A stretch of 64,000 bases of DNA from the NCBI GenBank assembly GCA_045541795.1, contig JAZQJV010000003.1, positions 1,623 to 65,622 on the forward strand, in the 5' to 3' direction. A program made the translations under genes and the position numbers. The DNA comes from Patescibacteria group bacterium (GTDB lineage: Bacteria > Patescibacteriota > Microgenomatia > UBA1400 > PJMF01). Under the pieces are notes generated by a model. It saw only the letters and a program-made list of their open reading frames with translations, did not search any database and was not told the DNA's origin. Shown here in pieces: positions 8,632-64,000 of this stretch. Positions within the stretch are counted from its first letter, which is position 1. Each line of letters starts with the position of its first letter.

Positions 8632-8656
8632 AGTAACATCAAGCTTCAATTGATGC

Positions 8657-20605: not shown

Positions 20606-20617
20606 GGGAAGTTTCTG

Positions 20618-20648
20618 GTTTTTTCGTACTGACAGTGTGAGTACAAAG
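20618..20648. repeat. 31-bp repeat GTTTTTTCGTACTGACAGTGTGAGTACAAAG containing the 19-bp palindrome GTACTGACAGTGTGAGTAC, copy 1
   Basis: Second copy at 21352..21382. Together they bracket the mazF-like gene. Confidence 0.6.
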
Positions 20649-20675
20649 GGAGAATGCGGGTGTGGAAAGTGGGTC

Positions 20676-20703
20676 TTGACGGATTGCGGTTTTGTGGTAT
20701 AAT
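20676..20703 (+). promoter_or_regulatory. promoter-like TTGACG-16-TATAAT followed 33 nt later by a hairpin; possible short antisense or sRNA transcript
   Basis: cTTGACGgattgcggttttgtggTATAAT, then the hairpin at 20736..20755. Confidence 0.3.
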
Positions 20704-20735
20704 AAGGTTGTATTTTGGAGATTTTCTCCCAATTC

Positions 20736-20755
20736 CCCCTGATGCGAGTCAGGGG
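20736..20755. terminator. hairpin CCCCTGA-tgcgag-TCAGGGG at the 3' end of the mazF-like gene
   Basis: 7-bp perfect stem, followed by tcaaattttgtc on the plus strand. Confidence 0.4.
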
Positions 20756-21162: not shown

Positions 21163-21351
21163 TCCTCATATTATCTACACAATTCTTTCAAATTCTTTCA
21201 AATTTATGATAGATTTACGGGATTTTTTGGCAACGAAATAACGTAATTTTATGTATAAATCATGAAAAATTAGAACGGTATTTTATCGTGAGAATTGACG
21301 AGTTAAGCGCCGAAAGCGTGGCTGACAGCCGCCTATCCGTAAAGTTTCGTG

Positions 21352-21382
21352 TTTTTTTCGTACTGACAGTGTGAGTACAAAG
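21352..21382. repeat. 31-bp repeat containing the palindrome GTACTGACAGTGTGAGTAC, copy 2
   Basis: Identical to 20618..20648. Confidence 0.6.
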
Positions 21383-24489: not shown

Positions 24490-24770
24490 AAGTGGCGATA
24501 ATTGCCAGTGAAAAGGCTTTTTGCTAGCAAAAGTGGGAAAAATTGGGGAGTTTTGCTAGTGGAAGAGGGGTTTTGTTGGCAAAAAAGGCCCGTTAGCAGC
24601 AACTGCCGACGGGCCAGGTTTTCTTTCACTTGCCGGTAAACTTACCAAACGCCATCTTGAGCCAGGAGAAATTCCAGGGCTGATGAAGCTTGTCAAGAGC
24701 CCATTTTTCTCCCTTTCGGCACCCCATAATACCTCCGGTTTACCAAAAATTGTAACTAGAACCGTTTTCC

Positions 24771-24832
24771 GTTTACAAAAGTAGGTAAAAATAGTAAGTT
24801 TTGTAAATAGAAATGGAATTTGGTTACAAAAA
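24771..24832 (+). repeat. 62-bp direct repeat, copy 1 (GTTTACAAAAGTAGGTAAAAATAGTAAGTTTTGTAAATAGAAATGGAATTTGGTTACAAAAA)
   Basis: Exact second copy at 26106..26167. The pair flanks the AAA ATPase gene and its promoter. Confidence 0.7.
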
Positions 24833-24833
24833 C

Positions 24834-24862
24834 TTGACATTTTCCCGCGGCCGTGTTATAAT
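24834..24862 (+). promoter_or_regulatory. promoter TTGACA-17-TATAAT for the AAA ATPase gene (leaderless, 7 nt to ATG)
   Basis: cTTGACAttttcccgcggccgtgtTATAATtacatatATG. Confidence 0.55.
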
Positions 24863-24869
24863 TACATAT

Positions 24870-26090: not shown

Positions 26091-26105
26091 ACAAAGACGA
26101 TTTTT

Positions 26106-26167
26106 GTTTACAAAAGTAGGTAAAAATAGTAAGTTTTGTAAATAGAAATGGAATTTGGTTACAAAAA
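26106..26167 (+). repeat. 62-bp direct repeat, copy 2
   Basis: Identical to 24771..24832. Confidence 0.7.
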
Positions 26168-26168
26168 T

Positions 26169-26194
26169 GGGGGTCTTGCTTGGACAAGACCCCC
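26169..26194. terminator. bidirectional hairpin GGGGGTCTTG-cttgga-CAAGACCCCC between the ATPase gene and ytxH-like
   Basis: 10-bp perfect stem. On the minus strand it is followed by CATTTTTGT. Confidence 0.5.
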
Positions 26195-26219
26195 TGCGGA
26201 TGCGAGCAAATTTGAAAAA

Positions 26220-26657
26220 TTAATCGATGGACTGGGCGAGCTTGCGCCATTGGGAATTGAGGTAGCGCTTGATTTTTTCCAGATCATCATCCTCATAGCG
26301 GTTGAAGGATTGGAGTTTTTCTACGACGTTGTCTACCATTTCTTGATAGGCTTTTTTGTCGATTTTATCCAAAGATTTTTCAAAGGTGTGGACTTGTTGC
26401 TCCCAGAGCTTGCGAGCGTCTTCATAAAGGGACGTGGTAATAGCAGAAACCTCACCAAAAATATCATACACTCGGTCAGCGATCGCTTCGCGCTCGGCAT
26501 CGAGGTAATCGTTAAATTCTTCCCATTTGTCACTCAGCAGACGGCGATTGGCCCGGCCAGAGCGCGGCGAAAGAAAAAACATTGCTGTAGCGCCGGCAAT
26601 ACCACCCAAAGCTAAACCCGCAAGAGCTGGCCAAAATCCACTTTGTCTTTCACTCAT
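26220..26657 (-). CDS. YtxH-domain protein
   Basis: The N-terminus GFWPALAGLALGGIAGATAMFFLSPRSGRANRRLL matches the YtxH glycine-zipper segment. Confidence 0.55.
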   Translation of the reverse strand: MSERQSGFWPALAGLALGGIAGATAMFFLSPRSGRANRRLLSDKWEEFNDYLDAEREAIADRVYDIFGEVSAITTSLYEDARKLWEQQVHTFEKSLDKIDKKAYQEMVDNVVEKLQSFNRYEDDDLEKIKRYLNSQWRKLAQSID

Positions 26658-42100: not shown

Positions 42101-43856
42101 TATAGCTGGAGTCTTGATTGAGGTAGGCGGTGGTATAGCCAAGTGAGAAACCAGTGGGCGCGGCAGCGTCAGCGTAGAATGTGAGATCAGAGCAGACCGC
42201 ATTTTGGCCGCTGCCGCTGGTAAGGGTGACTTGTGGATTAGCATCTGTACTGGCACCGCTTGTCCAGCTGTAGGCCGAAGTGAAGAGCTGATCGTCGCTG
42301 GTGGCGGAGATTACTGATGGCGTATTTGTCCAGACATTAGCACTGCCGTCTACGTCGGCAAAACTAGCTTGCGCAAGAGATGAAGGTAAGCTGGTGACCG
42401 AGCTTGCCAGCTGTGCTTTGACATCGACGATACCAGCTGTACCGGACTTATAGTAGCCGGTGGTACCGGCGGCAGACGGCAGGTAGACATTACTGCCGGT
42501 ATTAGTGTTGGCCGAGAGATAGCAGACAGGCGTGGGCGCGGTGGTATCTACACGGTTAAATGGCGAGCGACACTCGATGGAGTTGCCAGCATTATCATAG
42601 ATGGTGACGGTACAGGACGAACCGTGAGCACCAGCAATATTGCTGGAGCAGGCGTAGGAATTACTAGCGAGACCCGACTCACCGACATCATATGTAGAGT
42701 CGAGGGTCATCGTGGCGGGATAACTGACGCCGAGATTCCATGGAAGTACGCTGACGCCGCTAGTGCTAATGGTATCGCTGGAGGCGTTGGATTTGTAAGC
42801 CACGGTGTTGACCGTCCACGGACTCTGACTGGCAGTGCCGCAATTGGGATTTGTCCAGTCGATGATGAGTTGATTATTGAAGGAAGCGTAGCCAGGTGTA
42901 TTTGAGTACAAATTGTTATCAACAATTTTTATTTCTACATAACCAGCAAGACTGTCAGTGCCAGATTCTGGTTGCACGCTGTAAATACCTTCATCCAGGC
43001 CGGCGGCCAACACTTCCGCATACGTGAAATTTAGGCTCCAAGCAGCCGCTGTGCCATTACTAAGGTTACTGAGGGTCTTGGTGATGGTGTGATTATTTTT
43101 GTCGGTGAGGGTGACGGTGATAGTAAGGGTCTGATTGGTGTCGCCGTCGGTATAGGTACCGGCAAACGTAGCACCGCTAGTTTTGTTTAAAATCAAATCA
43201 CTGCTGTTGACGGTGATAGTCGGATCAGTATTACAGTCTGTGGTGAGTGTGTAAGGATTGTCTACAGTACCCAGTCCGTCACCGCCGTTGACCACGCATA
43301 AATTAGAACATTCATCGTCGACACAGTTGAGTTCGATGACGGGATAAGCATCAAGATCGCTGGTGGCGGCCACGGCGGTGCTCGCATCGCCGCTAGAATA
43401 GTTGATCTGATAGAGATTATTGCCGTTGGCAGTTCCCGTCCACGCATTGGTAGTATTGGGTAAGTAGTTATTGCCATAGCTTGTAGTGCCAGAATTGATA
43501 CCGGTCTTATAACTTTCTTTACCAGCATTCCATTCTGACTGAGTGACGAGGCGCATGTAACTGGGATAAGTGCTACAGTTGTCTAGTTTTTTGACCCAGT
43601 TGGCGTAGTCAGAACCGAGGGCGGTCTGCAAATAACCGGTGGAAGTACTATTATTAAGTGATTGCTGGAGCGTAGAACCGCACCACGTAGAACTTGCGGA
43701 AGAGTTGTATTGGACTGCTTGTGCACGTCTCGTGCCGGAAACACTGAGCGTCAGGATTGCCAAAGCGATTACCAAACGTGTAAATAGTGATTCTGCTAGT
43801 CTGCCAATTTTTGCTTTCATACTTTTTAGTTTCTGCGTATCTTTTAATACGTGCAA
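30132..43856 (-). CDS. giant (4574 aa) S/T-rich cell-surface adhesin-like protein with signal anchor and ~10 tandem modules (Cys-rich ~75-aa domain plus Ig-like regions)
   Basis: The N-terminus KIGRLAESLFTRLVIALAILTLSVSG is a signal anchor. The motif K(V/I)D(T/L)TAP(V/T)CG(T/S)W...SGI...C(T/S)T...G(A/D)TC(T/D)VTI(S/Y)D.AGN...C.SP.N.VD...P.L(T/A)C recurs at least 10 times. Confidence 0.7.
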   Translation of the reverse strand: MHVLKDTQKLKSMKAKIGRLAESLFTRLVIALAILTLSVSGTRRAQAVQYNSSASSTWCGSTLQQSLNNSTSTGYLQTALGSDYANWVKKLDNCSTYPSYMRLVTQSEWNAGKESYKTGINSGTTSYGNNYLPNTTNAWTGTANGNNLYQINYSSGDASTAVAATSDLDAYPVIELNCVDDECSNLCVVNGGDGLGTVDNPYTLTTDCNTDPTITVNSSDLILNKTSGATFAGTYTDGDTNQTLTITVTLTDKNNHTITKTLSNLSNGTAAAWSLNFTYAEVLAAGLDEGIYSVQPESGTDSLAGYVEIKIVDNNLYSNTPGYASFNNQLIIDWTNPNCGTASQSPWTVNTVAYKSNASSDTISTSGVSVLPWNLGVSYPATMTLDSTYDVGESGLASNSYACSSNIAGAHGSSCTVTIYDNAGNSIECRSPFNRVDTTAPTPVCYLSANTNTGSNVYLPSAAGTTGYYKSGTAGIVDVKAQLASSVTSLPSSLAQASFADVDGSANVWTNTPSVISATSDDQLFTSAYSWTSGASTDANPQVTLTSGSGQNAVCSDLTFYADAAAPTGFSLGYTTAYLNQDSSYTVNLSLNRSTATDDRSGINENSWALYESVGTLSDGNCTAMGAYTQVTDTSRVSWTNSAGQINGVSVIVPQTTGKCYQYQIRVSDNVGNEGSVASANFIKVDTTDPVCGTWTVSLNSWSQTYASNNTSITSHTQSGAISLPWNSGYAYNATLASNTDQGGSGITTATSSQSTTIPTTTGGGDGYADLTIADNAGNTTVCRSPLNTVDANSYTLSCTIGSLTGDSYTSAISGVTYYNYYRSSDSVLYYNPYVASTSGSSTEFTTGGGSFVLTNTISGMPAGGVDRISYPQLVSNAAYIVDRPSPLSPSAPRIFGRTYNWNTSTTGSEVDAANKIYWNINDPVAETPSAQCLVTVYEDHTAPTGVAPGYADSYTSTTGSQSVNLGVNVGQFSDDKAGIKTFTIQRRTATLSSGNCDYSSSAWTTPAQDYSGAGNWVRDFSSMTGNISVTDTLADGTCYQYRFVVTDQVGNQSIFTTSNSIKVSTSVPSNNLYSVSDVDQVYWDSVSTIYYGRNPSAANIDVTVEAIDNVAGINYVNFQNLAKTAYNVGTNAGSNHYYYTYALPTNGSSVAGVSINAVTNSSVTAPTSFNLTFDGDGPTGVAFTTCPGSAGSYLDVADFTVIGSYGTDALSTVDDSLTYIERAVGHLNNADGGCYYDAGNTVSSADAAYTKIDGTGGSVDRYTQTTSDGACYAYRLVSEDHVGNVTRSSVCEVAIDRTAPTCSNDPADWEPVEIYPYKSTAAQQAFRLKTYADAYSGVDDAASYGTLPDGGTTPGFTCTADAVDGATCTVTVTDRAGKTATCTSPANHVDEENPSLTCIINEGTNPGYQYATTIDEKPTLYYNANSFASGSSFDWEIHVDEPISGIRHDSAGNITGIGYADLAGSDSAWSQASYTGSNGVYHRTYTWSTGAGSRNPATTTFTYGNDLSNSCQIALIADNQAPQGGSLGYTGRYLKKGDSQTIDLQLTRATDDGTNDSGIDESSWQVWRYAGTLADGVCSYGDNPTPTQITPTQTFTAGVLTNLTATDILASGRCYKYELRVSDLVGNQAVFPANIADAAEIKVDTTAPVCGTDWDPAAGTDSWDVAPEVFKLYYNDGADHAAAGSYDTYSGVESVAGYEVCTAAAVYGATCDVTISDRAGNTTTCTSPINRVDNGEPTLACTITLDSGANALLVGNSTVYYNPSRGVGNFYLNAANVSSSESGVDSVEFPALADTAAETVTPTTAGQSSFTKTYNWTTTNNTQLYNQPVTMNFNNDVVLTCQVSAVADSQAPTGPDLGYLTQVTNKAGSNIEVSLGTAKSQITDAGVGINNWIFQYERVALGENDSCPFAGDYTDAADTHFTNISDAIADADLPDGTLTVNMNITDSSCYRYRVLVTDKLGNVGVISTANYYIVDSGRPSIAISNVSQPSGVYFDNVDTIYYAKPTVSTALILTADASAGEGYAISNVAFQDLTGEGTSSDTDSPYMRTYTLPVGSTTSYADRAITAYTNSEPVSSANTHFNVTYDGAGPSDVAFTTCPSTTSEYLTANSFAIKGSYGSDALSGLDLTSSFIEGQSGTFTNGACSYSGDYTRVSDYAATDYSVAGATDGCYRYRLVAADNVGNLTRSAVCEVKVDLTDPVCGTWEPEEVTVWNRANVGQRFVLSDSTDTTSGINVAGGECTTGVANGDTCTITISDNAGRTSVCRSPINKVDTNIYDLTCSLPADIAGDYWYPTMRASKPTLYFNPSSAASGTWRLTASMSQSPSSGYRTPLTFSAIAGGWTSSNYTESGLDIYQDYTWTTAGATGNANTTVDITYGNGQAAQCTVAVLADSASPVGSSLDYGTVYVGQDTAKTIDLKLTRGRDLASGIDETSWSVYKSVGTLAGDTCSDYSSFTAVPASELQYTTVNDQVTGISIAIDQDADYASGRCYKFQLRVSDMVGNTASVTSSGEVKIDLTAPNCGATWQPDPSPWKNTAVGQTFELLDSIDALTTMSASYYSCTTEASSSATCWVDIADVAGNTARCQSPANRIDLANPDVTCGLVSGTGTQYLISDKNLLYYNPAKGSGTFRVVATADEQPRSGIAYAYFPALAGSNEHYATQSASVTTPTVFTRDYAWSSTSTRSSENELVWVTYGNYNSNTCSVSVIADSTAPAGSAPKYKNIKYGIPGARDVKLGITAADFADDGAGLATLEIQRIKGTLGTDNVCTDWQDWGSSDMVSFGANDYTSYGSGIMSVNDDLQDMSCYRYRVVATDRVDNVSIFTAENVIMVNSNLPEIYITSVTPTADDIYYFDEASTIYYGPNSNARGAQVTTTARTNSTAVGAGITQVLYENFDRTSSTRYTYPTPTTPTYQDHFYEFTGLTSTMTDMILQAVNTTDDTNEAYFDVIYDSEGPQDVAFTACPSGWQATDNFTIAGSYGTDRLSGNDNTSENGSHIERAVVPLLANGTCDTASAVFAPVGSVGDTTYQETDASEACYIYRLVARDHVRNETSATCTVKVDLNNPTCGSWTPAEVNPWNTSGGQTFILAGSSDSGSGIKVSGGECATGDKTGDTCTVSIYDHAGRMSVCTSPVNKVDGDTPELTCTITEGTAPQYQYATTVGTLPTLYYNNGEASSGASINGSFLLGVKLDEPSSHITSKQFPVLAEGWTAGSQTSASGHYTQAYSWVQGAAGSERASVKFAYGNGTSGQCNVAIIPDHTAPVDGSLGYATAYINQASTHTVNLGLTRPTDSGSGIDEDSWTVWRSEGTLSGGTCSAYGAYSEVSAGLTTTDGKVTAIATTDTLESGKCYRFQVRVSDNVGNIATIASPNEIKVDTTAPVCGTTWDPAQVPWKNTAANQTFTLYGSTDTGSGIGASSFTCSTVNAIDGETCDVTIYDQAGNTATCTSPTNNIDDEVAALTCQVSPVSGTSYLPDDSTIYYNPSLSAGNFTVRTTAASVPSSGIAKVNFPALAANTAAESSRSATGNPRVYERNYTWDTTTRRDDSNSSVTMTFGNNNTSSCQVSAIADPDNPIAPASLTYATGVTNRAGSRELALGLGKSSVTDSGSGIKSWTIQRATGVATYTGDGTGDVSVADYTCNYECSEAEGCSDYATINTYDDAYLTADAIVANDTLVDGKCYRYRVLVTDNVSNTAVITSTNSFIVDTNVPEISIDSITSTSENFYYDGATTAYYAPTSGSNVTVLATATGGSSGTISSTAFQNLNDATTVAGIPGADINTYYRVYYLNDSNKTVYADRLALANNGLRAASTDFTLVYDDQAPAGRITTCPAGAQNSSSFSIKVDYGADPESTVSGITYSGSGLDTASSYLVQQIGTLAGGACSYPADLTADCADTSDSCSIVATGGVTNHAVSGAATNTCYRYLLVSTDKVGNQATTTSTASGDTCQIAIDLEAPTCGSWDPAEVNPWRTSGGQPFTLVGSSDAGSGLSSGLVTTCTTAATTGSTCSVTLTDRAGNTKVCQSPENKVDPATPALTCTLTPVTNTDYQHQAGSDTLYYSSYDYAASTGRTGSFQLTTQLAEPDSGITSVYYPPFNANWSLTPAGTGTHEGGAGTYTKTYAWAEAAESTGSGTIVYTYGNGTTASCRINVINDQTAPSFSLGYTDQYVTNNGAINLQLTGVSDTQSGINDSTWRVERIMGTTVTTGNTSSCDLTGAAYEDTAFTYSAGTLTATANMTNGHCYRYRVSVADNVANITTVTSTQTVYANFEAPVCGTWTPADPVDWKSVSNQQLFVLTDSDGGVSGMAQDSYSCTAVAVHGATCQVTITNNVGVSTTCTSPANRIDLAAPTLEVTPAVPGWTSTRQNIDVTAVDTLSGLARIAYAWNENSLGDSCTGGTTIASGSNIGITIDEGQHTLYVCAVDNVGHVSTFTDTYYYASMPSYIDLIDNVADGELTWNVRLVPTNDDILIEGYIPAMSVPKNFTITLAINGTSIVKTIDVSTIAGEQTGFTFAIPVEEFGLTLTNYTFPGPHTVTIRDNDSGMSVTKNYNISFYFPIYNTLHRANSSAYMYADNPDLNP

Positions 43857-50064: not shown

Positions 50065-51261
50065 TTACGGCCGGCGCAACCAAGCAAGAGCATTTTCTAC
50101 ATTGATGCCGTCTTGCTGACCGTAAATATCTAAATCAAGTGTGAGGACAGTACGAGAGAAACCGTCACGAAGCGACAAGAGTGGCGCAAATTCCCGTTCA
50201 CGTGTAGCGTCGTCCTGCAAACTGTAAGCCACTTGAAAATACGCCACATCTCCAGCGCCAGAAATGGTGACAAAATCAATCTCGGCGTGGGAAGTTTTAC
50301 CCACATATACTTGTCGATAGCGCCGGCGCAGTTCCAAGTAGACGATGTTTTCGAGGATCCGGCCACGATCAGCGAGACGACGGCCTTGACTGAAGTAACG
50401 AAGGCCGGGATCGACAACGTAATACTTCTCGCCAGTACAAAGTAGCTGACGGCCAGCCACGTCATAGCGAGGCGCGGCATAAAAAATGTAGGCTTCCTGG
50501 AGAGCATGCAAGTAACGATCAAGGGTTTTTGTGGAGACTTCCACCCCATCATGCCGGAGCATACTGGTGATTTTATTGAGCGAGCAGAGATTGCCGACAT
50601 TATCCATCAAAAAATCAATGACTCGCAAAAGGAGGCGAATATCCCGGAACTGATACCGAGCGACGATGTCTTTGAGTACGATACTATCCAAAATACCAAA
50701 GATATAGTCAGAAACTTCGTCTGGCTCGGTAAGATTGATGACATAAGGGAATGATCCAAAGGTGACATAGCGATGATAAAGTTTGTAATCATTGATCGGT
50801 TCTTTTTGCGCGGTAGCAAACTCACTAAATGAAAGCGGCAAAAGCTTAATCTCGATATAGCGGCCAGATAATTTAGTGGCCAGTTCACCAGAAAGCATTA
50901 CCGCATTGGAGCCTGTCAGATAAATATCAATATTTTTGTCCAAATAGAGACTACTGATGCATCTTTCCCACTGAGGAATATTTTGGATCTCATCAAGCAG
51001 AAGATAAGTACGACGCCTGGGGACAAGACGATCAGTAAGATATTGATAAAGCAGGCGATCGTCAAAATCGCGAAATTCATGAGACTCGAGGTTGAGATGA
51101 ATTATGCGATCAAACGGGACGCCAGAGGCGGCAAGTTTTTGAGCAAAAAGTTCAAGGAGTGTAGATTTACCGCAACGACGTACGCCGGTAACCACTTTGA
51201 TGACATCGCGGTCGCGCCATTTTTGGAGTTTTTGTAGTTGCTTTTGCCTCATGACTGACAT
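50065..51261 (-). CDS. AAA+ ATPase, DUF4143 family
   Basis: Walker A GVRRCGKST, Walker B LLLDEIQ, DUF4143 segment LTGSNAVMLSGELATKLSGRYIEIKLLPLSFSEF. Trimmed to MSVMRQ, which is leaderless behind TTGACA-17-TATAAT. Confidence 0.75.
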   Translation of the reverse strand: MSVMRQKQLQKLQKWRDRDVIKVVTGVRRCGKSTLLELFAQKLAASGVPFDRIIHLNLESHEFRDFDDRLLYQYLTDRLVPRRRTYLLLDEIQNIPQWERCISSLYLDKNIDIYLTGSNAVMLSGELATKLSGRYIEIKLLPLSFSEFATAQKEPINDYKLYHRYVTFGSFPYVINLTEPDEVSDYIFGILDSIVLKDIVARYQFRDIRLLLRVIDFLMDNVGNLCSLNKITSMLRHDGVEVSTKTLDRYLHALQEAYIFYAAPRYDVAGRQLLCTGEKYYVVDPGLRYFSQGRRLADRGRILENIVYLELRRRYRQVYVGKTSHAEIDFVTISGAGDVAYFQVAYSLQDDATREREFAPLLSLRDGFSRTVLTLDLDIYGQQDGINVENALAWLRRP

Positions 51262-51269
51262 GAGGGCGA

Positions 51270-51298
51270 TTATAGCACGACTGAGGCTTGTTGTCAAG
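51270..51298 (-). promoter_or_regulatory. promoter TTGACA-17-TATAAT, 7 nt upstream of the ATPase ATG
   Basis: Minus strand TTGACAacaagcctcagtcgtgcTATAATcgccctcATG. Confidence 0.5.
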
Positions 51299-51307
51299 TA
51301 TTTTGTA

Positions 51308-51450
51308 GAGTATAAGTACTAAAAAATGAAAATTTGATAAAAGTTGGGAGTATAAGTATGAAAAATTTTCCAAGTGTACCAGATGAAAAAAAGTTAGGAG
51401 TATAAGTATGAAAAATGTAAGATTTTGTGATTTTGTGGAGTATAAGTACT
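51308..51450. repeat. array of four GGAGTATAAGTA(C/T)(T/G)AAAAAT-type direct repeats (at 51308, 51348, 51398, 51438) in the divergent ATPase/valS intergenic region
   Basis: Read directly. Spacing is 40, 50 and 40 bp. Confidence 0.5.
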
Positions 51451-54442: not shown

Positions 54443-54470
54443 TTAATTATGGCGAATTCGCCATAATTAA
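54443..54470. repeat. 28-bp perfect palindrome TTAATTATGGCGAATTCGCCATAATTAA
   Basis: Read directly. GTGACATTTT also recurs three times nearby. Confidence 0.6.
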
Positions 54471-54548
54471 GATCATTTTTTGTTGCAAATTGCTGCACGT
54501 GAAACATTATAGGTTTTGCCTGGTGAGATGCGCAAATGGTGACATTTT

Positions 54549-54668
54549 TTCGCTGCAGTAAAATCAGCAAAGTTTGCTGCAAGCAAGTGAAGAATGTTTG
54601 CTGCAAGAAATTGACAAATCTTTGCTGCAGCTAATCGTTGATTGTTTGCTGCAATAAATCATGCATTT
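54549..54668 (+). repeat. five 24-bp phased units, each starting TT(T/C)GCTGCA(A/G), at 54549, 54573, 54597, 54621, 54645
   Basis: Exact 24-bp periodicity. The first ~10 bp are conserved and the remaining 14 bp vary. Too short and degenerate to be a CRISPR array. Confidence 0.55.
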
Positions 54669-54752
54669 TTGACTACAAAATAGTGACGAAATGATAGCGG
54701 TGAATAGCCAAGTTTGTCAGCTTTTATTGTTTGAGTGTGGTATAATACCGGG

Positions 54753-55037
54753 ATGAAAAGACGCGGTAGACACACGACCATCATCGAAGGCTTGGAGCCG
54801 GTTTTGCGGCAGTTAGAACGGTTAGATGGGGTAGAGGTGTCGCCAGGGCGGATCAGCACGGGGCTGCCCACGGGTCATCACATTTTGAAGCTAAAACAGC
54901 TGAGTGGGGGAGTGGAGGCGGTTTTTCGCGGGACGCGGACGAAGCAAGTACTGCATATTTATGGCGATGGGGAGCAAATCGTGACGACACTGGCAGGTCT
55001 ACACGGTGGTAATTTGACAGTACTAATTGCGCAGTAG
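54753..55037 (+). CDS. conserved hypothetical small protein (94 aa)
   Basis: The ORF 54735 is trimmed to MKRRGRHTT. The ATG is 6 nt after TGTGGTATAAT (leaderless). Confidence 0.45.
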   Translation: MKRRGRHTTIIEGLEPVLRQLERLDGVEVSPGRISTGLPTGHHILKLKQLSGGVEAVFRGTRTKQVLHIYGDGEQIVTTLAGLHGGNLTVLIAQ

Positions 55038-59068: not shown

Positions 59069-59089
59069 AAGGGATATTTTAGCAAAAAA

Positions 59090-59480
59090 TAAAACGGTTT
59101 TCAAGTGGAAGGATGATAAAAGTTTTCCACAAAACGGTGGAAAAGTAAGTGGGAAAGGTCGTGCGTAAAGCGGTGAAATAATGGTGAGATGAAAGTGTAA
59201 AGGTAATGGAGAAGGTGGAGAAAATGCGAGGAGTAGTTTTTTATGCACAAAATGAGGGAAAGTTTTCCCCGACCCGAAACGGAGTTTTACACAGGCGAAA
59301 ATTACCACCCGAAACTTCGTAATGAGAAAATAGCAGCGATGTATAGGTATTTTATTGTATGGATAAAAATGAGGCGGCGAGTTTTCCACCGAGTTTGGCG
59401 TCCCTACTATTTACTACTAAATATTTATAGATTTGTATGGACAACTTGTTTTTGGTAAAAATTTAATGTGGAACTACAAA
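59090..59480. promoter_or_regulatory. candidate oriC: cluster of DnaA-box-like 9-mers (TTTTCCACA, TTTTCCACC x2, TTTTACACA, TTTTCCCCG) plus an AT-rich segment, upstream of dnaN
   Basis: Boxes at 59123-59131, 59137-59145 (reverse), 59263, 59285 and 59382. The AT-rich segment is tatttactactaaatatttatagatttgtatgg at 59405-59440. Confidence 0.4.
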
Positions 59481-59502: not shown

Positions 59503-60618
59503 ATGAAGTGTAGTGTAAATCAAGACTTACTATTAGCCAGTGTAAAAGCCGTCAATAAATGCTTGAGTCGGCGACCGCATTTGCCGATTTTAGGTGGGAT
59601 TCATCTAAAAGCCGATGACGGTAAACTGGAGTTGACCACCACAGATATGACCGCTGGCTTGCGGGTAAAAATCCCCGCCGAAATCACGCAAGCGGGGGAA
59701 ACCACGGTGAGCGGCAAGAATTTTGTGGAGGCGGTCACTTTTTTTGATAAAGAAGGGACTGATCTGGAACTCATGGATAAACAAGTGTTGGTTAAAAACG
59801 GCCGTGATCTGGTGAAAATCCCGATTTTGACAGAAGATTTCCCACTTTTTGATGATAAAACTGACGACGCCGAAACTGTCAGTAAAGAAGTATCTTTTTG
59901 GGAATTTATCAGTAAAAATGTCAGTTATGCGGCTAGTCGCGATCAGAGCCGTCCGGCTTTGACCGGAGTGTTGATCAAAGCCAATGCTGAAAAAATGAAC
60001 GTGGTTGGCACAGATGGCTACCGGGTGGCGATTTGGGAGACTAAAGAAACGTTGGCAGGCGGCAAAGAACTGGAGATTATTGTCAATGCTAAAGCAATTA
60101 GTGACGTGGTGACGATTGCGGGGATTTTGGATGAGGAAAAAGTGGGCTTTTATCATCATACGGATGGCGAACAAGTGATTTTTACCGGGGAGAATTTTTC
60201 TTTTTTTAGCAAACTAATTAATGCAAAATTCCCACCTTTTGAAAAAATTGTACCGCTGGAGTTTACGACGCAGGCGACGATAGACCGGGAAACTTTTACC
60301 AAAAATCTAGCTAAAGCGGGTGTCTTTACTCGTACAGACAGTAATAGCGTGAAGATGCACTTGGAGGAAGCACAAATTAGTTATACGGCTACGTCGCTTG
60401 GTGATGGGAGCTTCCAAGGGAGTCAAGAGGTATTAAAATTTACTGGTGCACCGCTGGATATTGCATTTAAAATCAACTTTTTGCAGGAATATCTAAGCAC
60501 CTGCAGCGGTGAGACGGTGGAACTCAATTGTAATGGAGAGTTGTCGCCAATGGTGATCAAGGATCCAGATAACAGTGAAATGCTGTGTGTAATTATGCCA
60601 TTTAGGCCGAAAAAATAG
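59503..60618 (+). CDS. dnaN: DNA polymerase III beta sliding clamp
   Basis: 371 aa with a three-domain clamp pattern. The ATG is 7 nt after TGTGGTATAAT. Confidence 0.9.
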   Translation: MKCSVNQDLLLASVKAVNKCLSRRPHLPILGGIHLKADDGKLELTTTDMTAGLRVKIPAEITQAGETTVSGKNFVEAVTFFDKEGTDLELMDKQVLVKNGRDLVKIPILTEDFPLFDDKTDDAETVSKEVSFWEFISKNVSYAASRDQSRPALTGVLIKANAEKMNVVGTDGYRVAIWETKETLAGGKELEIIVNAKAISDVVTIAGILDEEKVGFYHHTDGEQVIFTGENFSFFSKLINAKFPPFEKIVPLEFTTQATIDRETFTKNLAKAGVFTRTDSNSVKMHLEEAQISYTATSLGDGSFQGSQEVLKFTGAPLDIAFKINFLQEYLSTCSGETVELNCNGELSPMVIKDPDNSEMLCVIMPFRPKK

Positions 60619-60660
60619 AAAAAAGTGTGGTATAATAGGCTGTCTTAGTTAGAAGGACAT

Positions 60661-60810
60661 ATGAAAAGAACGTGGCAACCTAAAAAAAAGAAACGGATGC
60701 GGAAACATGGTTTCCTGAAACGGATGATGACGGCCAAAGGTCGGCAGGTATTAAAACGCCGCCGAGATAAAGGTCGGGCGAGATTGACTGTGGTCCGCAA
60801 AGGAGTGTAA
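60661..60810 (+). CDS. rpmH: 50S ribosomal protein L34
   Basis: 49-aa [52 protein letters not shown]. It is absent from the ORF track because it is under 60 aa. An RBS gaagga lies upstream. Confidence 0.8.
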
Positions 60811-61023
60811 TTGTCTGATGTGGCTTACTGGGTAGCACTAGCGATAGTGCGAGTGCATAAGTTTTTCATGCCTGTAAAAAGGGTGGTACTTTATAGTGTT
60901 TTTGGTTTTTGTAGCGAGTGTAAACATCGCCCGACTTGTAGTGACTATTTGCTGGAGGCTGCGCGTGAGCGTGGCTGGCGGGGAGTGTGGGAAGGCTTGG
61001 TGAGGATAATAAGGTGCTGGTGA
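60811..61023 (+). CDS. yidD: membrane protein insertion efficiency factor YidD
   Basis: CSECKHRPTCSDYLLEAARERGWRGVWEGLVRIIRC matches the YidD pattern C..P(T/S)CS.Y..EA...G...G. The start is TTG or GTG immediately after rpmH. No rnpA lies between them. Confidence 0.6.
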   Translation: MSDVAYWVALAIVRVHKFFMPVKRVVLYSVFGFCSECKHRPTCSDYLLEAARERGWRGVWEGLVRIIRCW

Positions 61024-61037
61024 GTACATCCACGCCT

Positions 61038-61136
61038 AGAATGCGCGCACATTTACTCGCTCGCACTTTTTACAAGGTTAGGCGCTGCTCGACCGGTGTA
61101 AAAAGATGCCTTCGCTCGTAAATGTGCGCGCATTCT
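61038..61136. terminator. long inverted repeat (19-bp perfect arms AGAATGCGCGCACATTTAC / GTAAATGTGCGCGCATTCT, ~60-bp spacer) between convergent yidD and dnaA
   Basis: Arms at 61038-61056 and 61118-61136, followed by TTTAT. Confidence 0.45.
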
Positions 61137-61145
61137 TTATCTGGT

Positions 61146-61216
61146 GTACTCACACTGTACTCACAAAATTTGTACTCACAGCGTACTCACAAGATTTGTA
61201 CTCACAGTGTGAGTAC
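61146..61216. repeat. five direct GTACTCACA repeats (alternating 11/15-bp spacing) ending in a 19-bp palindrome, all inside a 9-bp inverted repeat
   Basis: Repeats at 61146, 61157, 61172, 61183, 61198. Inverted copy at 61208-61216. The palindrome is GTACTCACAGTGTGAGTAC and the flanking IR is CTGGTGTAC...GTACACCAG. Confidence 0.55.
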
Positions 61217-61253
61217 ACCAGGCGTGGGGAAAATTCTCATATTTCAAATAATA

Positions 61254-62852
61254 TCAGTAACTGCCGCCCAAAATGGAAGTGCGAATGGCGGCGACATCTT
61301 GGGAGAGGAGTTGATCATGAGTGAGGGCGTCGTTGATTTTGGTGACAGCGTGCATGACGCTGGTGTGATCACGATTGGAAAAAAGTCGGCCAATTTCGGC
61401 ATAACTCATAGACAGTAGAGACTTGAGCAAAAACATCGCCACGTGACGCGCCAGGGCAATTTCTTTTTGGCGGCGAGTGCCGGTGATGACCGCTTGTTTG
61501 ATGTGGTAATGATTGGAAACGGCGGAAAGAATTTCTTTGGGATGGATTTGGCGATGAGAGTATTCTTGTTGCTGCTGCTCGGAAAGGATACCGGAGACTA
61601 GGGATTGATCAATGAGCTTACCGGTAAGCTCGTGCTCACTTTTGAGCCGCATGACGATGCCTTCGAGCTTACGGGCAGAATCGATGCGGGCGGCGATCAT
61701 TTGAGCTAGCTCGATGGGGAGCTGAAGGCCGGCAGCTTTGGCTTTGGCCAAAAGGATGGCTGATCGTAGCTCAAAGGAAGGCTGCTGGATGTCAATTTTG
61801 AGACCAGCCTCAAAACGAGAACGTAAGCGATCCTCGAGGAGGGAAATCTCGTGCGGCGGGCGATCTGAGGTGAGGACGATTTGATGGTTTTGCTTGGCTA
61901 GGGCATTAAAAGTATGAAAAAATTCCTCTTGGACGGCGTTTTTGCCGGCGATAAACTGGATGTCGTCAATCAAAAGGACTTCGCAGGTGCGGTATTTGTC
62001 TTTGAAGTTGAGAGCTTGTTTGTTTTGGATGGCACGGATGATGGAATTGGTAAATTCTTCGCCGGTACAGTAAATAATGCTGGTTTCGGGGCGAGAGCGG
62101 AGGATGTAATTGCCGATAGACTGCATGAGATGGGTTTTACCGACGCCGACGCCTCCATAAAGGAAAAGAGGATTGTAGCTAACGCCTGGGTTTTTGGCGA
62201 CAGACATGGCAGCTACGTGAGCCATTTCATTGGAGCCAGAGACGGCAAAAGTATCAAAGGTGAAATCTGGCCGGAGACCGATATTTTTGGCGATGGTGGC
62301 GGCACGAGAAATGAGAGTTTGCTGGATAGTAGATGGAGCAAAAAGGCCGTCATGATATTCGGGAGAAGCAGCGGGGCTGACAGTGGCGGGCGTAGAGGGA
62401 GTGGCGGGGCTGCTGGTGACGGCTGGTGCAGAGTGAGAAACGGGATTTTCTGCCTGGGGAGAGGAGACATTGGGAAGATGGCTGGGAGTGGGTACTGGTG
62501 TGGCGGGAGCGGCTGGCGCTGGTGGCTGAGTAAGGGGAGAAGATATAGTGGTGGGGGCGGGTTGGGGATTGAAGATGAATTTGAGTTCCACGGGGCGGCC
62601 GAGCTTGGTCGTGAGAGCGGTTTTGGCGGCAGGGCCGAGATTTTTTTCAAACTGGAGGGCATTGAAGGAAGACGGGCACAAGAAAATACACAACCACTGT
62701 GTACCGTCGGCATAATCATCAATTTGATGGAGGGAACAGGTCTTGCCCCAGGCGTCAATCAGGAGAGAAGAAACAGATCCGGCAAGTTCCTGGCAAGTTT
62801 CTTGCCAGAGGGTCTGCAGTGAGCCAGCGTCCAGGTCTAATGTTTGCGACAT
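61254..62852 (-). CDS. dnaA: chromosomal replication initiator DnaA
   Basis: AAA+ Walker A GGVGVGKTHL, DnaA signature and C-terminal HTH. A long P/A/T-rich linker. Start MSQTLDLD at 62852. Confidence 0.9.
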   Translation of the reverse strand: MSQTLDLDAGSLQTLWQETCQELAGSVSSLLIDAWGKTCSLHQIDDYADGTQWLCIFLCPSSFNALQFEKNLGPAAKTALTTKLGRPVELKFIFNPQPAPTTISSPLTQPPAPAAPATPVPTPSHLPNVSSPQAENPVSHSAPAVTSSPATPSTPATVSPAASPEYHDGLFAPSTIQQTLISRAATIAKNIGLRPDFTFDTFAVSGSNEMAHVAAMSVAKNPGVSYNPLFLYGGVGVGKTHLMQSIGNYILRSRPETSIIYCTGEEFTNSIIRAIQNKQALNFKDKYRTCEVLLIDDIQFIAGKNAVQEEFFHTFNALAKQNHQIVLTSDRPPHEISLLEDRLRSRFEAGLKIDIQQPSFELRSAILLAKAKAAGLQLPIELAQMIAARIDSARKLEGIVMRLKSEHELTGKLIDQSLVSGILSEQQQQEYSHRQIHPKEILSAVSNHYHIKQAVITGTRRQKEIALARHVAMFLLKSLLSMSYAEIGRLFSNRDHTSVMHAVTKINDALTHDQLLSQDVAAIRTSILGGSY

Positions 62853-62897: not shown

Positions 62898-64000
62898 TTA
62901 TGTCCCCGCTGGCGGGCGGTAGGCGTCTATGGAGTATTCGTCATGGCCGATGAAGCCAGCGGGCTGATTGGCGCCAGGGCGGGTGGTGGGTTGATCGGGG
63001 ATTTTGTCTGCGGGGACGCGGCTGGTGGGCGGTGCAGAAGTGTCAGCAGGAGCAGTATTACCCATAGGAGTGCCGGCGGGGATGACTGGAGAGACGGCCG
63101 GTGCTGGTGCTGGAGAGGCAGGCTGAGGAGTGGAAGTGGGGGTGTTCGCGGCTGGTTGCCCGGTAAGATTGCTGATCATGGAGTAAATGTTTTGCAGCTC
63201 CGGGTTGGATTGGTTGGCGGCGACGGTAGCTTGATTAGCACCACTAGCCTCTAAAAGCAGCCGGTCACGTTCGAGAGCTTCTTGCTGCTGGCGTTTCATC
63301 ACTTCTTCCGGATTGGTGGTGATCACCCGGTGCTCCTCTGGCGAGGCGATCACCCGCAGTGCCACGTGATTTTGCCCGGCAAAAAAGATGCCCTCGCCCA
63401 CGTCTACGGAAAGCAACAGCTGGCGCTCACCTTGGGAGAGGTGGAAGGTTTCTACCAGCGGGGGGATGGAAACGGAAGATTGTTTCATTAGGAATTGGAT
63501 GGAAGAGTTGGAGACGATGGCCTTGCCGTAGTCATTGTGGAGGAAGTCTTCCACATCCTGAGAAATAGTAGTGACGCCGAGATAGTATTTGCGGGCGCGT
63601 TTGGCCATAGAGTATAAAAAGCTTGCTGAATCAGCATTTTTCATGAAATACCAGGCCTCGTCTACAATGAGGATGCGTTTTTTGAAGTTGCGCTTGACGC
63701 GCGTCCAGATGAAGTCGAGAATGACGTACATGGCGATAGGACGGAGTTCTTCTTCAATTTCTTTGACGGAGAAAATAATGAGCGGATTGGTGAGGTCGAT
63801 ATTGGATTTTTGGTCAAACAGTCCCCGGAAAGAGCCGGTAATGTACTTTTCTAAGCGAGCGGCAATATCGAGGGCGGGAGGAATTTCCATACCGATCAAG
63901 GCTTTGTAGAGGTCTTCCATGAGTGGCGGTTCATTGGTCTGGGTGCCAGGATCTGGGGTGATGCCTTTGGCTTTGTAAGCGGCGACGATCGCTTTATCCA
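62898..64000 (-). CDS. VirB4/TrbE/CagE-family type IV secretion ATPase, C-terminal part (N-terminus beyond window)
   Basis: Walker B RILIVDEAWYFM and ARKYYLGVTTISQDVEDF, with a long P/T-rich C-terminal tail. The frame stays open to position 64000. Confidence 0.7.
   Translation of the reverse strand, partial: DKAIVAAYKAKGITPDPGTQTNEPPLMEDLYKALIGMEIPPALDIAARLEKYITGSFRGLFDQKSNIDLTNPLIIFSVKEIEEELRPIAMYVILDFIWTRVKRNFKKRILIVDEAWYFMKNADSASFLYSMAKRARKYYLGVTTISQDVEDFLHNDYGKAIVSNSSIQFLMKQSSVSIPPLVETFHLSQGERQLLLSVDVGEGIFFAGQNHVALRVIASPEEHRVITTNPEEVMKRQQQEALERDRLLLEASGANQATVAANQSNPELQNIYSMISNLTGQPAANTPTSTPQPASPAPAPAVSPVIPAGTPMGNTAPADTSAPPTSRVPADKIPDQPTTRPGANQPAGFIGHDEYSIDAYRPPAGT

What the first reader, a model, noticed from the sequence alone, without database searches (positions are those of the whole stretch)
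61038..61221. Array of five GTACTCACA direct repeats plus a palindrome, nested in inverted repeats, downstream of dnaA: candidate centromere, iteron or regulator site
The 9-mers sit at alternating 11/15-bp spacing (61146-61206) and end in the palindrome GTACTCACAGTGTGAGTAC. The whole block is bracketed by CTGGTGTAC/GTACACCAG and preceded by a 19-bp-arm inverted repeat (61038-61136). The same palindrome, with one mismatch, flanks the mazF-like cassette. Arrays of direct repeats plus a palindrome near dnaA are typical of parS or iteron-type protein-binding sites. The 9-mer matches the DnaA box TTATCCACA at 6 of 9 positions.
Basis: seen in the sequence. Interest (0 to 1): 0.55.

Follow-up and report, generated by a model that had tools for sequence, protein, structure and literature searches.

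The report
Repeated protein-binding sites beside dnaA
A real cluster of six copies of a 10-base motif lies just after the dnaA gene of an uncultivated Patescibacteria bacterium; it is most likely a set of docking sites for an unidentified DNA-binding regulator, and it is not the replication origin, whose DnaA boxes lie 1.7 kb away.

Summary
Five direct copies and one inverted copy of (T/C)GTACTCACA lie at 61145-61217. They form a 26-bp two-unit module repeated three times. It is the top-scoring tandem repeat in the window (9 exact 9-mers against 0.39 expected).

The array fills the gap between the converging 3' ends of dnaA (- strand) and dnaN-rpmH-yidD (+ strand), next to a 19-bp-arm hairpin.

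It is not a DnaA-box cluster. This lineage's DnaA boxes are TTTTCCACA. They sit upstream of dnaA and, together with a conserved DnaA-trio and an AT-rich element, upstream of dnaN (59.08-59.45 kb). GC skew does not switch sign anywhere in the window.

The unit belongs to a lineage-specific family, TGT(A/C)N(T/A)(C/G)ACA, phased at 11 bp. Copies recur in relatives with 96% nucleotide identity and with 84% and 71% DnaA identity. One to three units sit in intergenic gaps, and four sites are centred at -60 to -85 of strong predicted promoters.

Best reading: multi-site binding array for an unidentified dimeric regulator (confidence 0.45). Rivals are a REP/BOX/MITE-like modular repeat, an RNA 3'-end structure, a recombination site and a centromere. 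No cognate protein was found. The finding is of modest interest.

The parts
61145..61154 (+). unit 1, TGTACTCACA
61156..61165 (+). unit 2, TGTACTCACA, 11 bp after unit 1
61171..61180 (+). unit 3, TGTACTCACA, 15 bp after unit 2. The spacer makes the small palindrome ACAAAATTTGT.
61182..61191 (+). unit 4, CGTACTCACA. It is the only unit altered in the 96%-identical strain L122, where it reads TGTTCTCACA.
61197..61206 (+). unit 5, TGTACTCACA
61208..61217 (-). unit 6, inverted (TGTGAGTACA on the + strand). With unit 5 it forms a 21-bp palindrome.
61141..61221 (.). the whole array: a 26-bp two-unit module repeated three times, closed by a perfect 17-bp inverted repeat, CTGGTGTACTCACACTG / CAGTGTGAGTACACCAG
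   Evidence: It is the longest inverted repeat and the top tandem repeat in the window.
61038..61136 (.). hairpin with perfect 19-bp arms and a 61-nt partly paired loop, 4 nt from the array. It is probably the 3'-end structure or terminator of the yidD operon and/or of dnaA.
   Evidence: In L122 it carries 5 arm changes, one of them a compensatory C-G to T-A.
61030..61037 (.). CCACGCCT, the outer inverted repeat that pairs with 61220-61227 and encloses the hairpin and the array
61220..61227 (.). AGGCGTGG, partner of 61030-61037
61225..61233 (-). TTTTCCCCA, a one-mismatch DnaA-box-like 9-mer abutting the array, followed by an AT-rich stretch that runs into the dnaA stop codon. Its significance is unknown.
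20625..20645 (.). two-unit palindrome CGTACTGACA-G-TGTGAGTACA, 20 nt after the transketolase stop. Its units are centred about -80 and -70 from a TTGACG-16-TATAAT promoter (20676-20703).
21359..21379 (.). second copy of the same palindrome inside the same 30-bp direct repeat, on the other side of the PemK cassette
61254..62852 (-). dnaA (context). Its stop codon is 33 nt from unit 6.
60811..61023 (+). yidD (context), the last gene of dnaN-rpmH-yidD, which converges on dnaA
59080..59450 (.). sequence-defined oriC (context, not part of the array): TTTTCCACA-type DnaA boxes, the DnaA-trio-like CCCTACTATTTACTACTAA and an AT-rich stretch upstream of dnaN

Best explanation
The array is a cluster of six binding sites for one sequence-specific double-stranded-DNA-binding protein of this Paceibacteria-like lineage, most likely a dimeric transcription-factor-type protein.

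Each 10-bp unit has symmetric ends, TGT-N4-ACA, which suits a dimer or a monomer pair. Units come in pairs 11 bp apart, one helical turn. The array is such a two-unit site tandemly triplicated at a 26-bp period, with the last unit flipped.

Elsewhere the same unit family occurs as one to three units just upstream of strong promoters, where the protein would act as a regulator.

At this locus there is no promoter to serve. The inferred local role is a high-occupancy platform in the gap between converging dnaA and dnaN-rpmH-yidD transcription, 1.7 kb from oriC. It could act as a roadblock or insulator, or as a reservoir for the regulator.

Shown: the repeats, their helical phasing, and their recurrence and conservation. 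Inferred: protein binding, the type of protein, and the local role.
For: 1. The motif is strongly non-random and locally amplified.

2. The units persist in a strain at 96.3% nucleotide identity. Five of six are intact. The array diverges no faster than the surrounding genes, while the adjacent hairpin diverges about threefold faster. The seventh half-site, on the yidD stop codon, is not conserved.

3. The same unit occurs in a relative with 84% DnaA identity (L119). There it forms a three-unit site at exact 11-bp spacing, TGTGAGTACA-T-TGTCAGTACA-C-TGTACTCACA, and also a single unit.

4. A relative with 71% DnaA identity (L121) has three loci, each with three direct units at 11-bp spacing: TGTCATGACA, TGTCACTACA and similar. 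These differ by as little as one base from the window variant. One locus is again immediately downstream of dnaA and next to a 21-bp-arm hairpin.

5. The pattern TGT-N4-ACA-N-TGT-N4-ACA occurs in 1.7 Mb of fetched DNA only in these lineages and in loci selected for the palindrome itself.

6. The triple direct repeats in L119 and L121 cannot form hairpins. This favours recognition as duplex DNA.

7. Four sites lie upstream of near-consensus promoters, with unit centres at about -61 to -85 (my hand count of positions):
- L119, TTGACA-17-TATCAT;
- L121, TTGACA-16-TATAAT;
- window, TTGACG-16-TATAAT;
- L119, an extended -10 TGTGATATAAT read by eye but not called by the scan.
Against: - No candidate binding protein was found. 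Pfam scans of the window's ORFs show no HTH, response-regulator, RHH, ParB or LexA protein.
- The array itself has no promoter within reach (and my reading).
- Promoters and start sites are predictions only.
- In compact genomes a site placed just after a stop codon falls at about -70 of the next promoter by default. Six of eight sites are within 33 nt or less of a stop codon.
- In L121 every unit site is accompanied by a second motif, ATTAMCGCATAATTAMCG. In the window, units are followed by AGAATGCG(C/G)G at two loci. This looks like a modular repeat family.
- The element is absent from the sampled dnaA regions of other close relatives (L120/L145 at 81% and L123 at 74% DnaA identity).
- The census rests on 64 kb plus about 50 kb of relatives, not on whole genomes.
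Confidence: 0.45

Rival explanations
1. A modular intergenic repeat element of the REP/BIME, BOX or MITE kind. Under this reading it is a selfish or structural repeat made of unit modules plus a hairpin module and bounded by inverted repeats. It would have been inserted into the dnaA-yidD gap and would have no dedicated regulatory role.
For: - The 230-nt gap folds into a closed two-hairpin structure on either strand (z = -11.4 and -10.5).
- It is bounded by CCACGCCTAG / CCAGGCGTGG, and the array by 17-bp perfect inverted repeats.
- Presence among relatives is patchy. L123 has only 8 bp between dnaA and yidD.
- Most copies sit right after stop codons or between converging genes, as REP and BOX elements do.
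- Unit modules co-occur with a second motif or hairpin module in L121 and with AGAATGCG in the window.
- 30-bp direct repeats containing the palindrome flank a low-GC PemK cassette.
Against: - There are only three loci in 64 kb, and the hairpin-1 sequence occurs once.
- No target-site duplication is present.
- The spacing between modules differs at every locus.
- The L119 and L121 sites are direct triplets that do not fold.
- The strict 11-bp phasing and promoter-proximal positions are not expected of a passive repeat.
Confidence: 0.22
2. An RNA-level element. The whole gap would be the structured 3' end of the dnaA mRNA, the yidD-operon mRNA, or both, acting as a bidirectional terminator or stabiliser. 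The repeats would matter only as stem-forming sequence.
For: - The folding z-scores are very strong.
- The location is between converging genes.
- Hairpin 1 is followed by TTTAT on the + strand.
- Between the window and L122 the stems show one compensatory pair. Three changes are G-U on the dnaA-sense strand and one is G-U on the other strand (my pairing).
Against: - The terminator scan calls nothing here.
- No U-run follows the array hairpin on the dnaA strand.
- The PemK-flanking palindromes have the T-run on the wrong side for either strand.
- The homologous unit triplets in L119 and L121 cannot pair.
- The 3-to-1 strand asymmetry of wobble changes is not significant.
- Rfam gives only spurious miRNA-hairpin matches.
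Confidence: 0.1
3. A site-specific recombination site. The palindrome would be a core site for a host recombinase and the direct repeats would be accessory (arm-type) sites, as in attI or attP. This would explain the cassette flanked by 30-bp repeats and the position at a breakpoint of the clade-specific inversion of dnaN-rpmH-yidD.
For: - Identical 30-bp direct repeats around a 734-bp low-GC PemK cassette look like attL and attR.
- The array lies exactly at one junction of the inversion that distinguishes this clade (L121, L123, L120, L145, window) from L124 and L001-L004.
- The arrangement of five direct units plus one inverted unit resembles the integron attI layout (from my own knowledge).
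Against: - No recombinase gene is present in the window or in the cassette.
- The other inversion junction (about 59.0-59.1 kb) has no unit.
- A 1-bp spacer between half-sites is unlike tyrosine-recombinase cores.
- The cassette and both repeats are fixed at the same place in a second strain.
- The sites in L119 and L121 are not palindromic.
Confidence: 0.07
4. A centromere of the plasmid parC/ParR or omega type. Tandem short repeats would be bound cooperatively by a small ribbon-helix-helix protein and used to segregate the origin region.
For: - Six roughly 10-bp units with dyad-symmetric ends lie 1.7 kb from oriC.
- Relatives also carry unit sites within about 3 kb of dnaA.
- R1 parC uses 11-bp repeats in sets of five, and omega sites mix direct and inverted heptads (from my own knowledge).
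Against: - No parM, parA or parR-like gene is adjacent, and none is recognisable in the window.
- The same units flank an unrelated cassette 40 kb away and sit at ordinary promoters.
- A candidate canonical parS, TGCTGCACGTGAAACA, conserved in L122, lies at 54491 (expected 0.02 per window at one mismatch or fewer).
Confidence: 0.05
5. A cluster of divergent DnaA boxes (part of oriC, or a DnaA-titrating datA-like locus), or plasmid-type iterons.
For: - The array is adjacent to dnaA.
- The unit matches TTATCCACA at 6 of 9 positions.
- A one-mismatch box, TTTTCCCCA, and an AT-rich stretch abut the array.
- In distant relatives the dnaA-dnaN gap is oriC.
Against: - This lineage's boxes are TTTTCCACA or TTTTACACC, found upstream of dnaA in the window, L119, L120, L121 and L123.
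- They also cluster upstream of dnaN next to the conserved DnaA-trio.
- DnaA domain IV is ordinary (Bac_DnaA_C, 3e-24).
- The L121 units match the box at only 4 of 9 positions.
- There is no rep gene and no GC-skew switch.
Confidence: 0.03
6. A named version of the best explanation: the units are GTAC-N7-GTAC direct-repeat SOS boxes for a non-canonical LexA.
For: - LexA is stated to have evolved direct-repeat motifs independently several times. One of the works cited for this is a Patescibacteria study (PMC7739468, section 12).
- The alphaproteobacterial motif is GTTC-N7-GTTC (PMC8565304, introduction), which has the same 11-bp period.
- One L121 site precedes an operon that contains radA.
- Toxin genes are often under SOS control (from my own knowledge).
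Against: - I could not obtain the published Patescibacteria motif.
- No lexA or recA locus of this lineage was available to test autoregulation.
- The sites lie upstream of the -35, not over the promoter.
- The other downstream genes are a glycosyltransferase, a nucleotidyltransferase and an unknown protein, which are not SOS-like.
- The L121 units read GTCA, not GTAC.
Confidence: 0.06

Closest known systems
Multi-site operator or activator arrays of dimeric transcription factors with one-turn phasing. Examples: OmpR/PhoB-family direct repeats such as pho boxes and ArcA sites, and GntR/AraR-type TGTAC...GTACA operators.
   Same: - Units of about 10 bp repeat at 11 bp.
- Sites hold one to three units at promoters.
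- Unit ends are symmetric (TGT...ACA).
- Orientation is flexible.
- The half-site ATTTGTAC is identical to the AraR operator half-site (from memory).
   Different: - No cognate regulator is identified.
- The six-unit array is not associated with any promoter.
- Spacing alternates 11 and 15 bp, which puts successive pairs on opposite faces of the helix.
- The motif matches no described regulon that I could find.
Global regulators with sites at or near the origin: CtrA in Caulobacter Cori, MtrA in the Mycobacterium oriC/dnaA region, Spo0A boxes in Bacillus oriC.
   Same: One motif is used both at ordinary promoters and as a multi-site cluster next to dnaA and oriC.
   Different: Here the cluster is 1.7 kb from the unwinding element and separated from it by three genes. 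No overlap with DnaA boxes is seen, and nothing shows an effect on replication.
REP/BIME and BOX modular intergenic repeats
   Same: - Intergenic, mostly at gene 3' ends or between converging genes.
- Built of modules in variable number.
- Strongly self-complementary.
- Patchy among relatives.
   Different: - Very low copy number in the DNA available.
- Many copies are direct triplets that cannot fold.
- No RAYT-type transposase is seen.
Plasmid centromeres made of short tandem repeats (R1 parC with ParR; pSM19035 omega sites)
   Same: Arrays of short repeats with mixed orientation, bound cooperatively by small dimers; 11-bp repeats in sets of five.
   Different: There is no adjacent partition operon and no promoter embedded in the array. 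The units also occur singly at unrelated loci.
oriC DnaA-box clusters
   Same: Next to dnaA; 9- to 10-bp repeats ending in CACA.
   Different: The genuine boxes and the DnaA-trio of this lineage lie elsewhere and have a different sequence.

Membership tests
oriC / DnaA-box cluster | Repeats match the DnaA box that this lineage's DnaA uses | tested here: not met
   The lineage's boxes are TTTTCCACA or TTTTACACC. The unit shares 6 of 9 positions with TTATCCACA, and the L121 units share 4 of 9.
oriC / DnaA-box cluster | Adjacent DnaA-trio and AT-rich unwinding element | tested here: not met
   The trio CCCTACTATTTACTACTAA and a DnaA box are at 59382-59416 upstream of dnaN. They are conserved in 10 loci. 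None is at the array.
oriC / DnaA-box cluster | GC-skew sign change at the site | tested here: not met
   Skew is positive across all 64 kb and for 3 kb beyond the window.
ParB-parS centromere | 16-bp palindrome close to TGTTNCACGTGNAACA | tested here: not met
   The array has no resemblance to it. The only near match is at 54491-54506, with one mismatch.
ParB-parS centromere | parA/parB genes present | tested here: inconclusive
   None was found among the window ORFs scanned. The rest of the genome was not available.
parC/ParR-type repeat centromere | Tandem short repeats with helical phasing | tested here: met
   Six units with 11-bp pairs and a 26-bp module period.
parC/ParR-type repeat centromere | Adjacent partition operon whose promoter lies within the repeats | tested here: not met
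   The array is flanked by the 3' ends of dnaA and yidD, and no promoter is called there.
Plasmid iterons | Direct repeats next to a rep initiator gene | tested here: not met
   No rep-like gene is present. The neighbours are dnaA, yidD, rpmH and dnaN.
Transcription-factor binding-site family (regulon sites) | Same motif at several intergenic loci in this and related genomes | tested here: met
   Window positions 20625, 21359 and 61145-61217; L119 at 6343-6374 and 12865; L121 at 7546, 9716 and 11526; L122 and L144 conserved.
Transcription-factor binding-site family (regulon sites) | Consistent position relative to promoters | tested here: inconclusive
   Four sites have units centred at about -61 to -85 of predicted promoters. 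The array, L121 sites 1 and 3, and window site 21359 have no such promoter. Start sites are not mapped.
Transcription-factor binding-site family (regulon sites) | Identified cognate DNA-binding protein | not testable with these tools
   No candidate is in the window. Complete genomes of the lineage were not retrievable.
REP/BIME, BOX or MITE-like repeats | High copy number dispersed through the genome | tested here: inconclusive
   There are three loci in 64 kb, and a loose pattern gives chance-level extra hits. No whole genome was available.
REP/BIME, BOX or MITE-like repeats | Self-complementary structure with terminal inverted repeats | tested here: met
   z = -11, with 17-bp and 8-10-bp bounding inverted repeats. 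The L119 and L121 copies are direct triplets. No target-site duplication is present.
Intrinsic terminator | GC-rich hairpin followed by a U-run | tested here: not met
   The scan finds none in 61024-61253. Hairpin 1 is followed only by TTTAT on the + strand.
LexA direct-repeat SOS box | Motif upstream of lexA and recA (autoregulation) and match to the published Patescibacteria motif | not tested
   No lexA or recA locus was available, and the paper is not held.

The most novel reading that the evidence does not exclude
The promoter-less six-site array beside dnaA and oriC could be the nucleation or titration platform of a Patescibacteria-specific global regulator. That regulator would also act at ordinary promoters and would couple dnaA or origin activity, or origin-region segregation, to a cellular signal. 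This is the logic of CtrA, MtrA or Spo0A, or of parC, evolved independently in a radiation whose cell-cycle control is unknown.
Probability: 0.1. Interest if true: 0.6.

Novelty: new member of a known kind. Interest (0 to 1): 0.33.

Why it matters
Almost nothing is known about gene regulation or cell-cycle control in the Candidate Phyla Radiation (CPR), because the organisms are uncultivated.

The finding gives three usable things:
- A short, well-defined motif family with an unusually clean six-site array next to dnaA. It is a ready bait for DNA pull-down, DAP-seq or EMSA with proteins expressed from metagenome-assembled genomes.
- A sequence-defined oriC for this clade (DnaA box, DnaA-trio and AT-rich element upstream of dnaN).
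- An inversion that separates dnaA from oriC in this clade.

If the array is only a repeat element or a terminator-like structure, the finding is ordinary.

Tried and rejected
- **Exact look-ups of the window's DnaA and DnaN.** Not on record, so the source contig could not be extended. A 96% strain (L122) was obtained through cluster members.
- **Metagenome-wide scan for the palindrome**. It gave 38 hits, about the number expected by chance for 18 specified bases by my rough estimate of the collection's size. None is related to the window. L094 has a 26-bp satellite containing the 9-mer, but it looks eukaryote-like and is a coincidence.
- **Viral scans**. They found unrelated short duplications, for example upstream of a phage terminase, and no CPR phage link.
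- **GTDB scan with DnaA**. The nearest species representatives are only 44-47% identical and carry no units.
- **Literature search for the motif**. It returned only primers and unrelated sequences. The Patescibacteria SOS paper is not held.
- **Rfam**. Nothing real.
- **Search for a promoter served by the array** (and by eye). None found.
- **Search for a cognate HTH, RHH, response-regulator or ParB gene in the window**. None found.
- **CRP-like, NrdR-like and dif-like readings of the palindrome.** Considered and dropped because spacing or symmetry does not fit.
- **DNA-uptake-sequence reading.** Dropped because the motif density is far too low.

Full report
**Observation.** The finding's description is accurate. 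GTACTCACA starts at 61146, 61157, 61172, 61183 and 61198 on the + strand, and an inverted copy lies at 61208-61216. The window holds 9 exact copies against 0.39 expected, and no shuffle reaches 9.

The natural unit is 10 bp, TGTACTCACA; the fourth copy begins with C. The units form a 26-bp two-unit module repeated three times. This is the highest-scoring tandem repeat in the window and also its longest inverted repeat. A perfect 17-bp inverted repeat, CTGGTGTACTCACACTG / CAGTGTGAGTACACCAG, closes the array.

A perfect 19-bp-arm hairpin (61038-61136) lies 4 nt to the left. CCACGCCT (61030-61037) and AGGCGTGG (61220-61227) enclose both features. Either strand of the 230-nt gap folds far better than shuffled controls, with z = -11.4 and -10.5.

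The one-mismatch palindrome GTACTGACAGTGTGAGTAC occurs twice, at 20626 and 21360. Both copies lie inside identical 30-bp direct repeats around a low-GC cassette that encodes a PemK/MazF-family protein.

**Context.** The genes are dnaN (59503-60618, +), rpmH (60661-60810, +), yidD (60811-61023, +), the array, dnaA (61254-62852, -) and a VirB4/TraG-like ATPase (62898-63920, -). The array therefore sits between the converging 3' ends of dnaA and the dnaN-rpmH-yidD operon.

The organism is a Patescibacteria (Paceibacteria-like) bacterium. The closest species representatives have only 44-47% DnaA identity.

**The array is not the origin, and its units are not DnaA boxes.** In distant relatives (L001-L004, L124) dnaA is followed by DnaA boxes, a CTACTACTAC-type DnaA-trio, an AT-rich stretch and then dnaN.

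In the window the same element lies upstream of dnaN: TTTTCCACC, then CCCTACTATTTACTACTAA, then AT-rich sequence. An alignment of ten loci shows the invariant CTACT...ACTA core with a DnaA box just upstream. The only exact TTTTCCACA sites in 64 kb are at 59123 and at 62873, just upstream of dnaA. The same paired boxes precede dnaA in L119, L120, L121 and L123. DnaA domain IV is ordinary.

A clade-specific inversion of dnaN-rpmH-yidD put oriC 1.7 kb from the end of dnaA. It is shared by the window, L120/L145, L121 and L123, and is absent from L124. The array lies at one junction of this inversion.

GC skew stays positive across the whole window and for 3 kb beyond it. It also fails to switch at the sequence-defined oriC, which I cannot explain.

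**Comparative evidence on the units.**

- *L122, 96.3% identical over 11.6 kb.* It keeps the array with three changes in 81 nt, and five of six units are intact. Hairpin 1 has ten changes in 99 nt: one compensatory pair, two changes that are G-U on the dnaA-sense strand, and one mismatch. The extra half-site on the yidD stop codon is lost.
- *L119, 84% DnaA identity.* TGTGAGTACA-T-TGTCAGTACA-C-TGTACTCACA starts 2 nt after the stop of the VirB4-like gene, and a single TGTACTCACA lies upstream of another gene.
- *L121, 71% DnaA identity.* It has three loci within 4 kb around dnaA, each with three direct units at 11-bp spacing (TGTCATGACA, TGTCACTACA and variants). One locus lies just downstream of dnaA and is followed by a 21-bp-arm hairpin, which mirrors the window. 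TGTAGTGACA, the reverse complement of TGTCACTACA, differs by one base from the window variant TGTACTGACA. The two therefore belong to one family, with consensus TGT(A/C)N(T/A)(C/G)ACA.
- *Specificity.* In 1.7 Mb of fetched DNA, two such units 11 bp apart occur only in these lineages and in loci that were selected for the palindrome.
- *Absences.* The family is absent from the sampled dnaA regions of L120/L145 and L123.

**What the units are likely to be.** Direct triplets at one-turn spacing cannot fold, so recognition as duplex DNA by a protein is the most economical reading.

Four sites lie upstream of strong predicted promoters:

| Locus | Promoter |
|---|---|
| L119 | TTGACA-17-TATCAT |
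| L121 | TTGACA-16-TATAAT |
| window 20676-20703 | TTGACG-16-TATAAT |
| L119 | extended -10 TGTGATATAAT, read by eye; the scan finds nothing |

By my count the unit centres fall at about -61 to -85 from the predicted start sites. This is where upstream-bound regulators commonly sit.

The downstream genes do not share a clear theme. They are a GT2 glycosyltransferase, a nucleotidyltransferase-radA operon, an unknown 575-aa protein, and a short hairpin-rich transcript that converges on the PemK gene.

The caveat is serious. These genomes are compact, and six of eight sites lie within 33 nt of a stop codon, which by itself places them near -70 of the next promoter. Unit sites also travel with a second motif: ATTAMCGCATAATTAMCG in L121 and AGAATGCG(C/G)G in the window. 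That pattern is what a modular repeat family would look like.

The array itself serves no detectable promoter. No DNA-binding protein candidate is encoded in the window.

**Mechanism proposed.** A dimeric regulator binds each unit or unit pair. The array arose by tandem triplication of a two-unit site and holds up to six protomer pairs, with successive pairs 26 bp (about 2.5 turns) apart.

At this promoter-less, converging junction it would most plausibly act as a bound-protein barrier or insulator next to the hairpin, or as a reservoir of the regulator near the origin. Binding, protein type and local role are inferences. The repeats, their phasing, recurrence and conservation are shown.

**Rivals.**

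- *REP/BOX/MITE-like modular repeat.* Supported by the strong fold, the bounding inverted repeats, the patchy distribution, the 3'-end positions and the module co-occurrence. Against it are the low copy number, the lack of a target-site duplication and the non-folding triplets.
- *RNA 3'-end structure.* The fold and one compensatory change support it. The lack of U-runs, the wrongly placed T-runs at the PemK sites and the non-folding triplets argue against it.
- *Recombination site.* The 30-bp direct repeats around the cassette and the inversion junction support it. There is no recombinase, no unit at the other junction, and the sites in relatives are not palindromic.
- *Repeat-type centromere.* The architecture resembles parC or omega sites, but there is no partition operon. 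A one-mismatch canonical parS candidate, conserved in L122, exists at 54491.
- *DnaA boxes or iterons.* Essentially excluded.
- *LexA as the binder.* It can use direct repeats at this period (PMC7739468; PMC8565304). I could not test this.

**Verdict.** The feature is real and statistically solid. The DnaA-box, iteron and centromere options are not supported. It is a new instance of a known kind of feature, a short-repeat protein-binding array, in a poorly understood lineage. Its binder and local function are unknown.

Noticed in passing
window 3036-7455 (RT 3036-4202, TR 5229-5412, VR 6226-6409; all on the - strand): A diversity-generating retroelement. A reverse-transcriptase gene sits next to two Fib_succ_major-domain genes. 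A 184-nt repeat pair differs at 16 positions. At every one the 5229-5412 copy has A and the copy at the 3' end of the 411-aa gene has G, T or C, which is the adenine-specific signature.
   Followed up: partly
window 59080-59450: Sequence-defined oriC upstream of dnaN: TTTTCCACA-type DnaA boxes, the DnaA-trio-like CCCTACTATTTACTACTAA and an AT-rich stretch. The core is invariant in ten Patescibacteria loci.
   Followed up: yes
window 1-64000 and L122 1-3046: GC skew is positive (0.1-0.3) on both sides of the sequence-defined oriC, regardless of gene strand. The switch expected for bidirectional replication is absent. L121 hints at a switch at its own oriC. Unexplained.
   Followed up: partly
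window 54443-54660: A second repeat-rich gap 4.6 kb from oriC. It holds a perfect 28-bp palindrome, TTAATTATGGCGAATTCGCCATAATTAA (54443-54470), and about six TTTGCTGCA repeats at a period of about 24 bp (54480-54655). The first repeat overlaps a one-mismatch parS-like TGCTGCACGTGAAACA (54491-54506) that is conserved in L122. All lie upstream of a small ORF with a weak DUF2103 match (54735-55037).
   Followed up: partly
window 20613-21352: The PemK/MazF-family gene (20749-21162, -) has no antitoxin ORF. A near-consensus promoter (20676-20703, +) would drive a transcript of about 60 nt with two hairpins that converges on the toxin's 3' end. It could be an RNA antitoxin. The cassette and both 30-bp flanking repeats sit at the same place in a second strain (L144).
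   Followed up: partly
window 59503-62852; L120, L121, L123, L145 compared with L124 and L001-L004: A clade-specific inversion of dnaN-rpmH-yidD relative to dnaA. No rnpA lies between rpmH and yidD.
   Followed up: partly
window 15-1154, 24813-26090, 50065-51297; repeats at 24750-24829 and 26085-26164: Three AAA_14-DUF4143 ATPase paralogues. The middle one is flanked by an 80-bp repeat that includes its own start region, so the next ORF (26148-26615) begins with a duplicated 5' end.
   Followed up: no
window 51309-51448; also 2983-2997, 7683-7697, 8617-8632, 20689-20703: Recurrent promoter-like strings. GAGTATAAGTA occurs four times before the tRNA-synthetase gene at 51408. GTTTTGTGGTATAAT is identical at three loci, and a one-mismatch copy lies at 8617. 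This suggests a strong extended -10 consensus in this genome.
   Followed up: no
L121 7612-7697, 9750-9778, 11573-11643: Every unit site in L121 is accompanied by ATTAMCGCATAATTAMCG, itself a direct repeat at 11 bp. It appears either alone or as long perfect hairpins that the scan flags as terminator-like.
   Followed up: partly
window 30132-43856 and 10116-15569: Very large ORFs of 4574 aa and 1817 aa. The 1817-aa ORF has no Pfam match; the 4574-aa ORF was not scanned.
   Followed up: no
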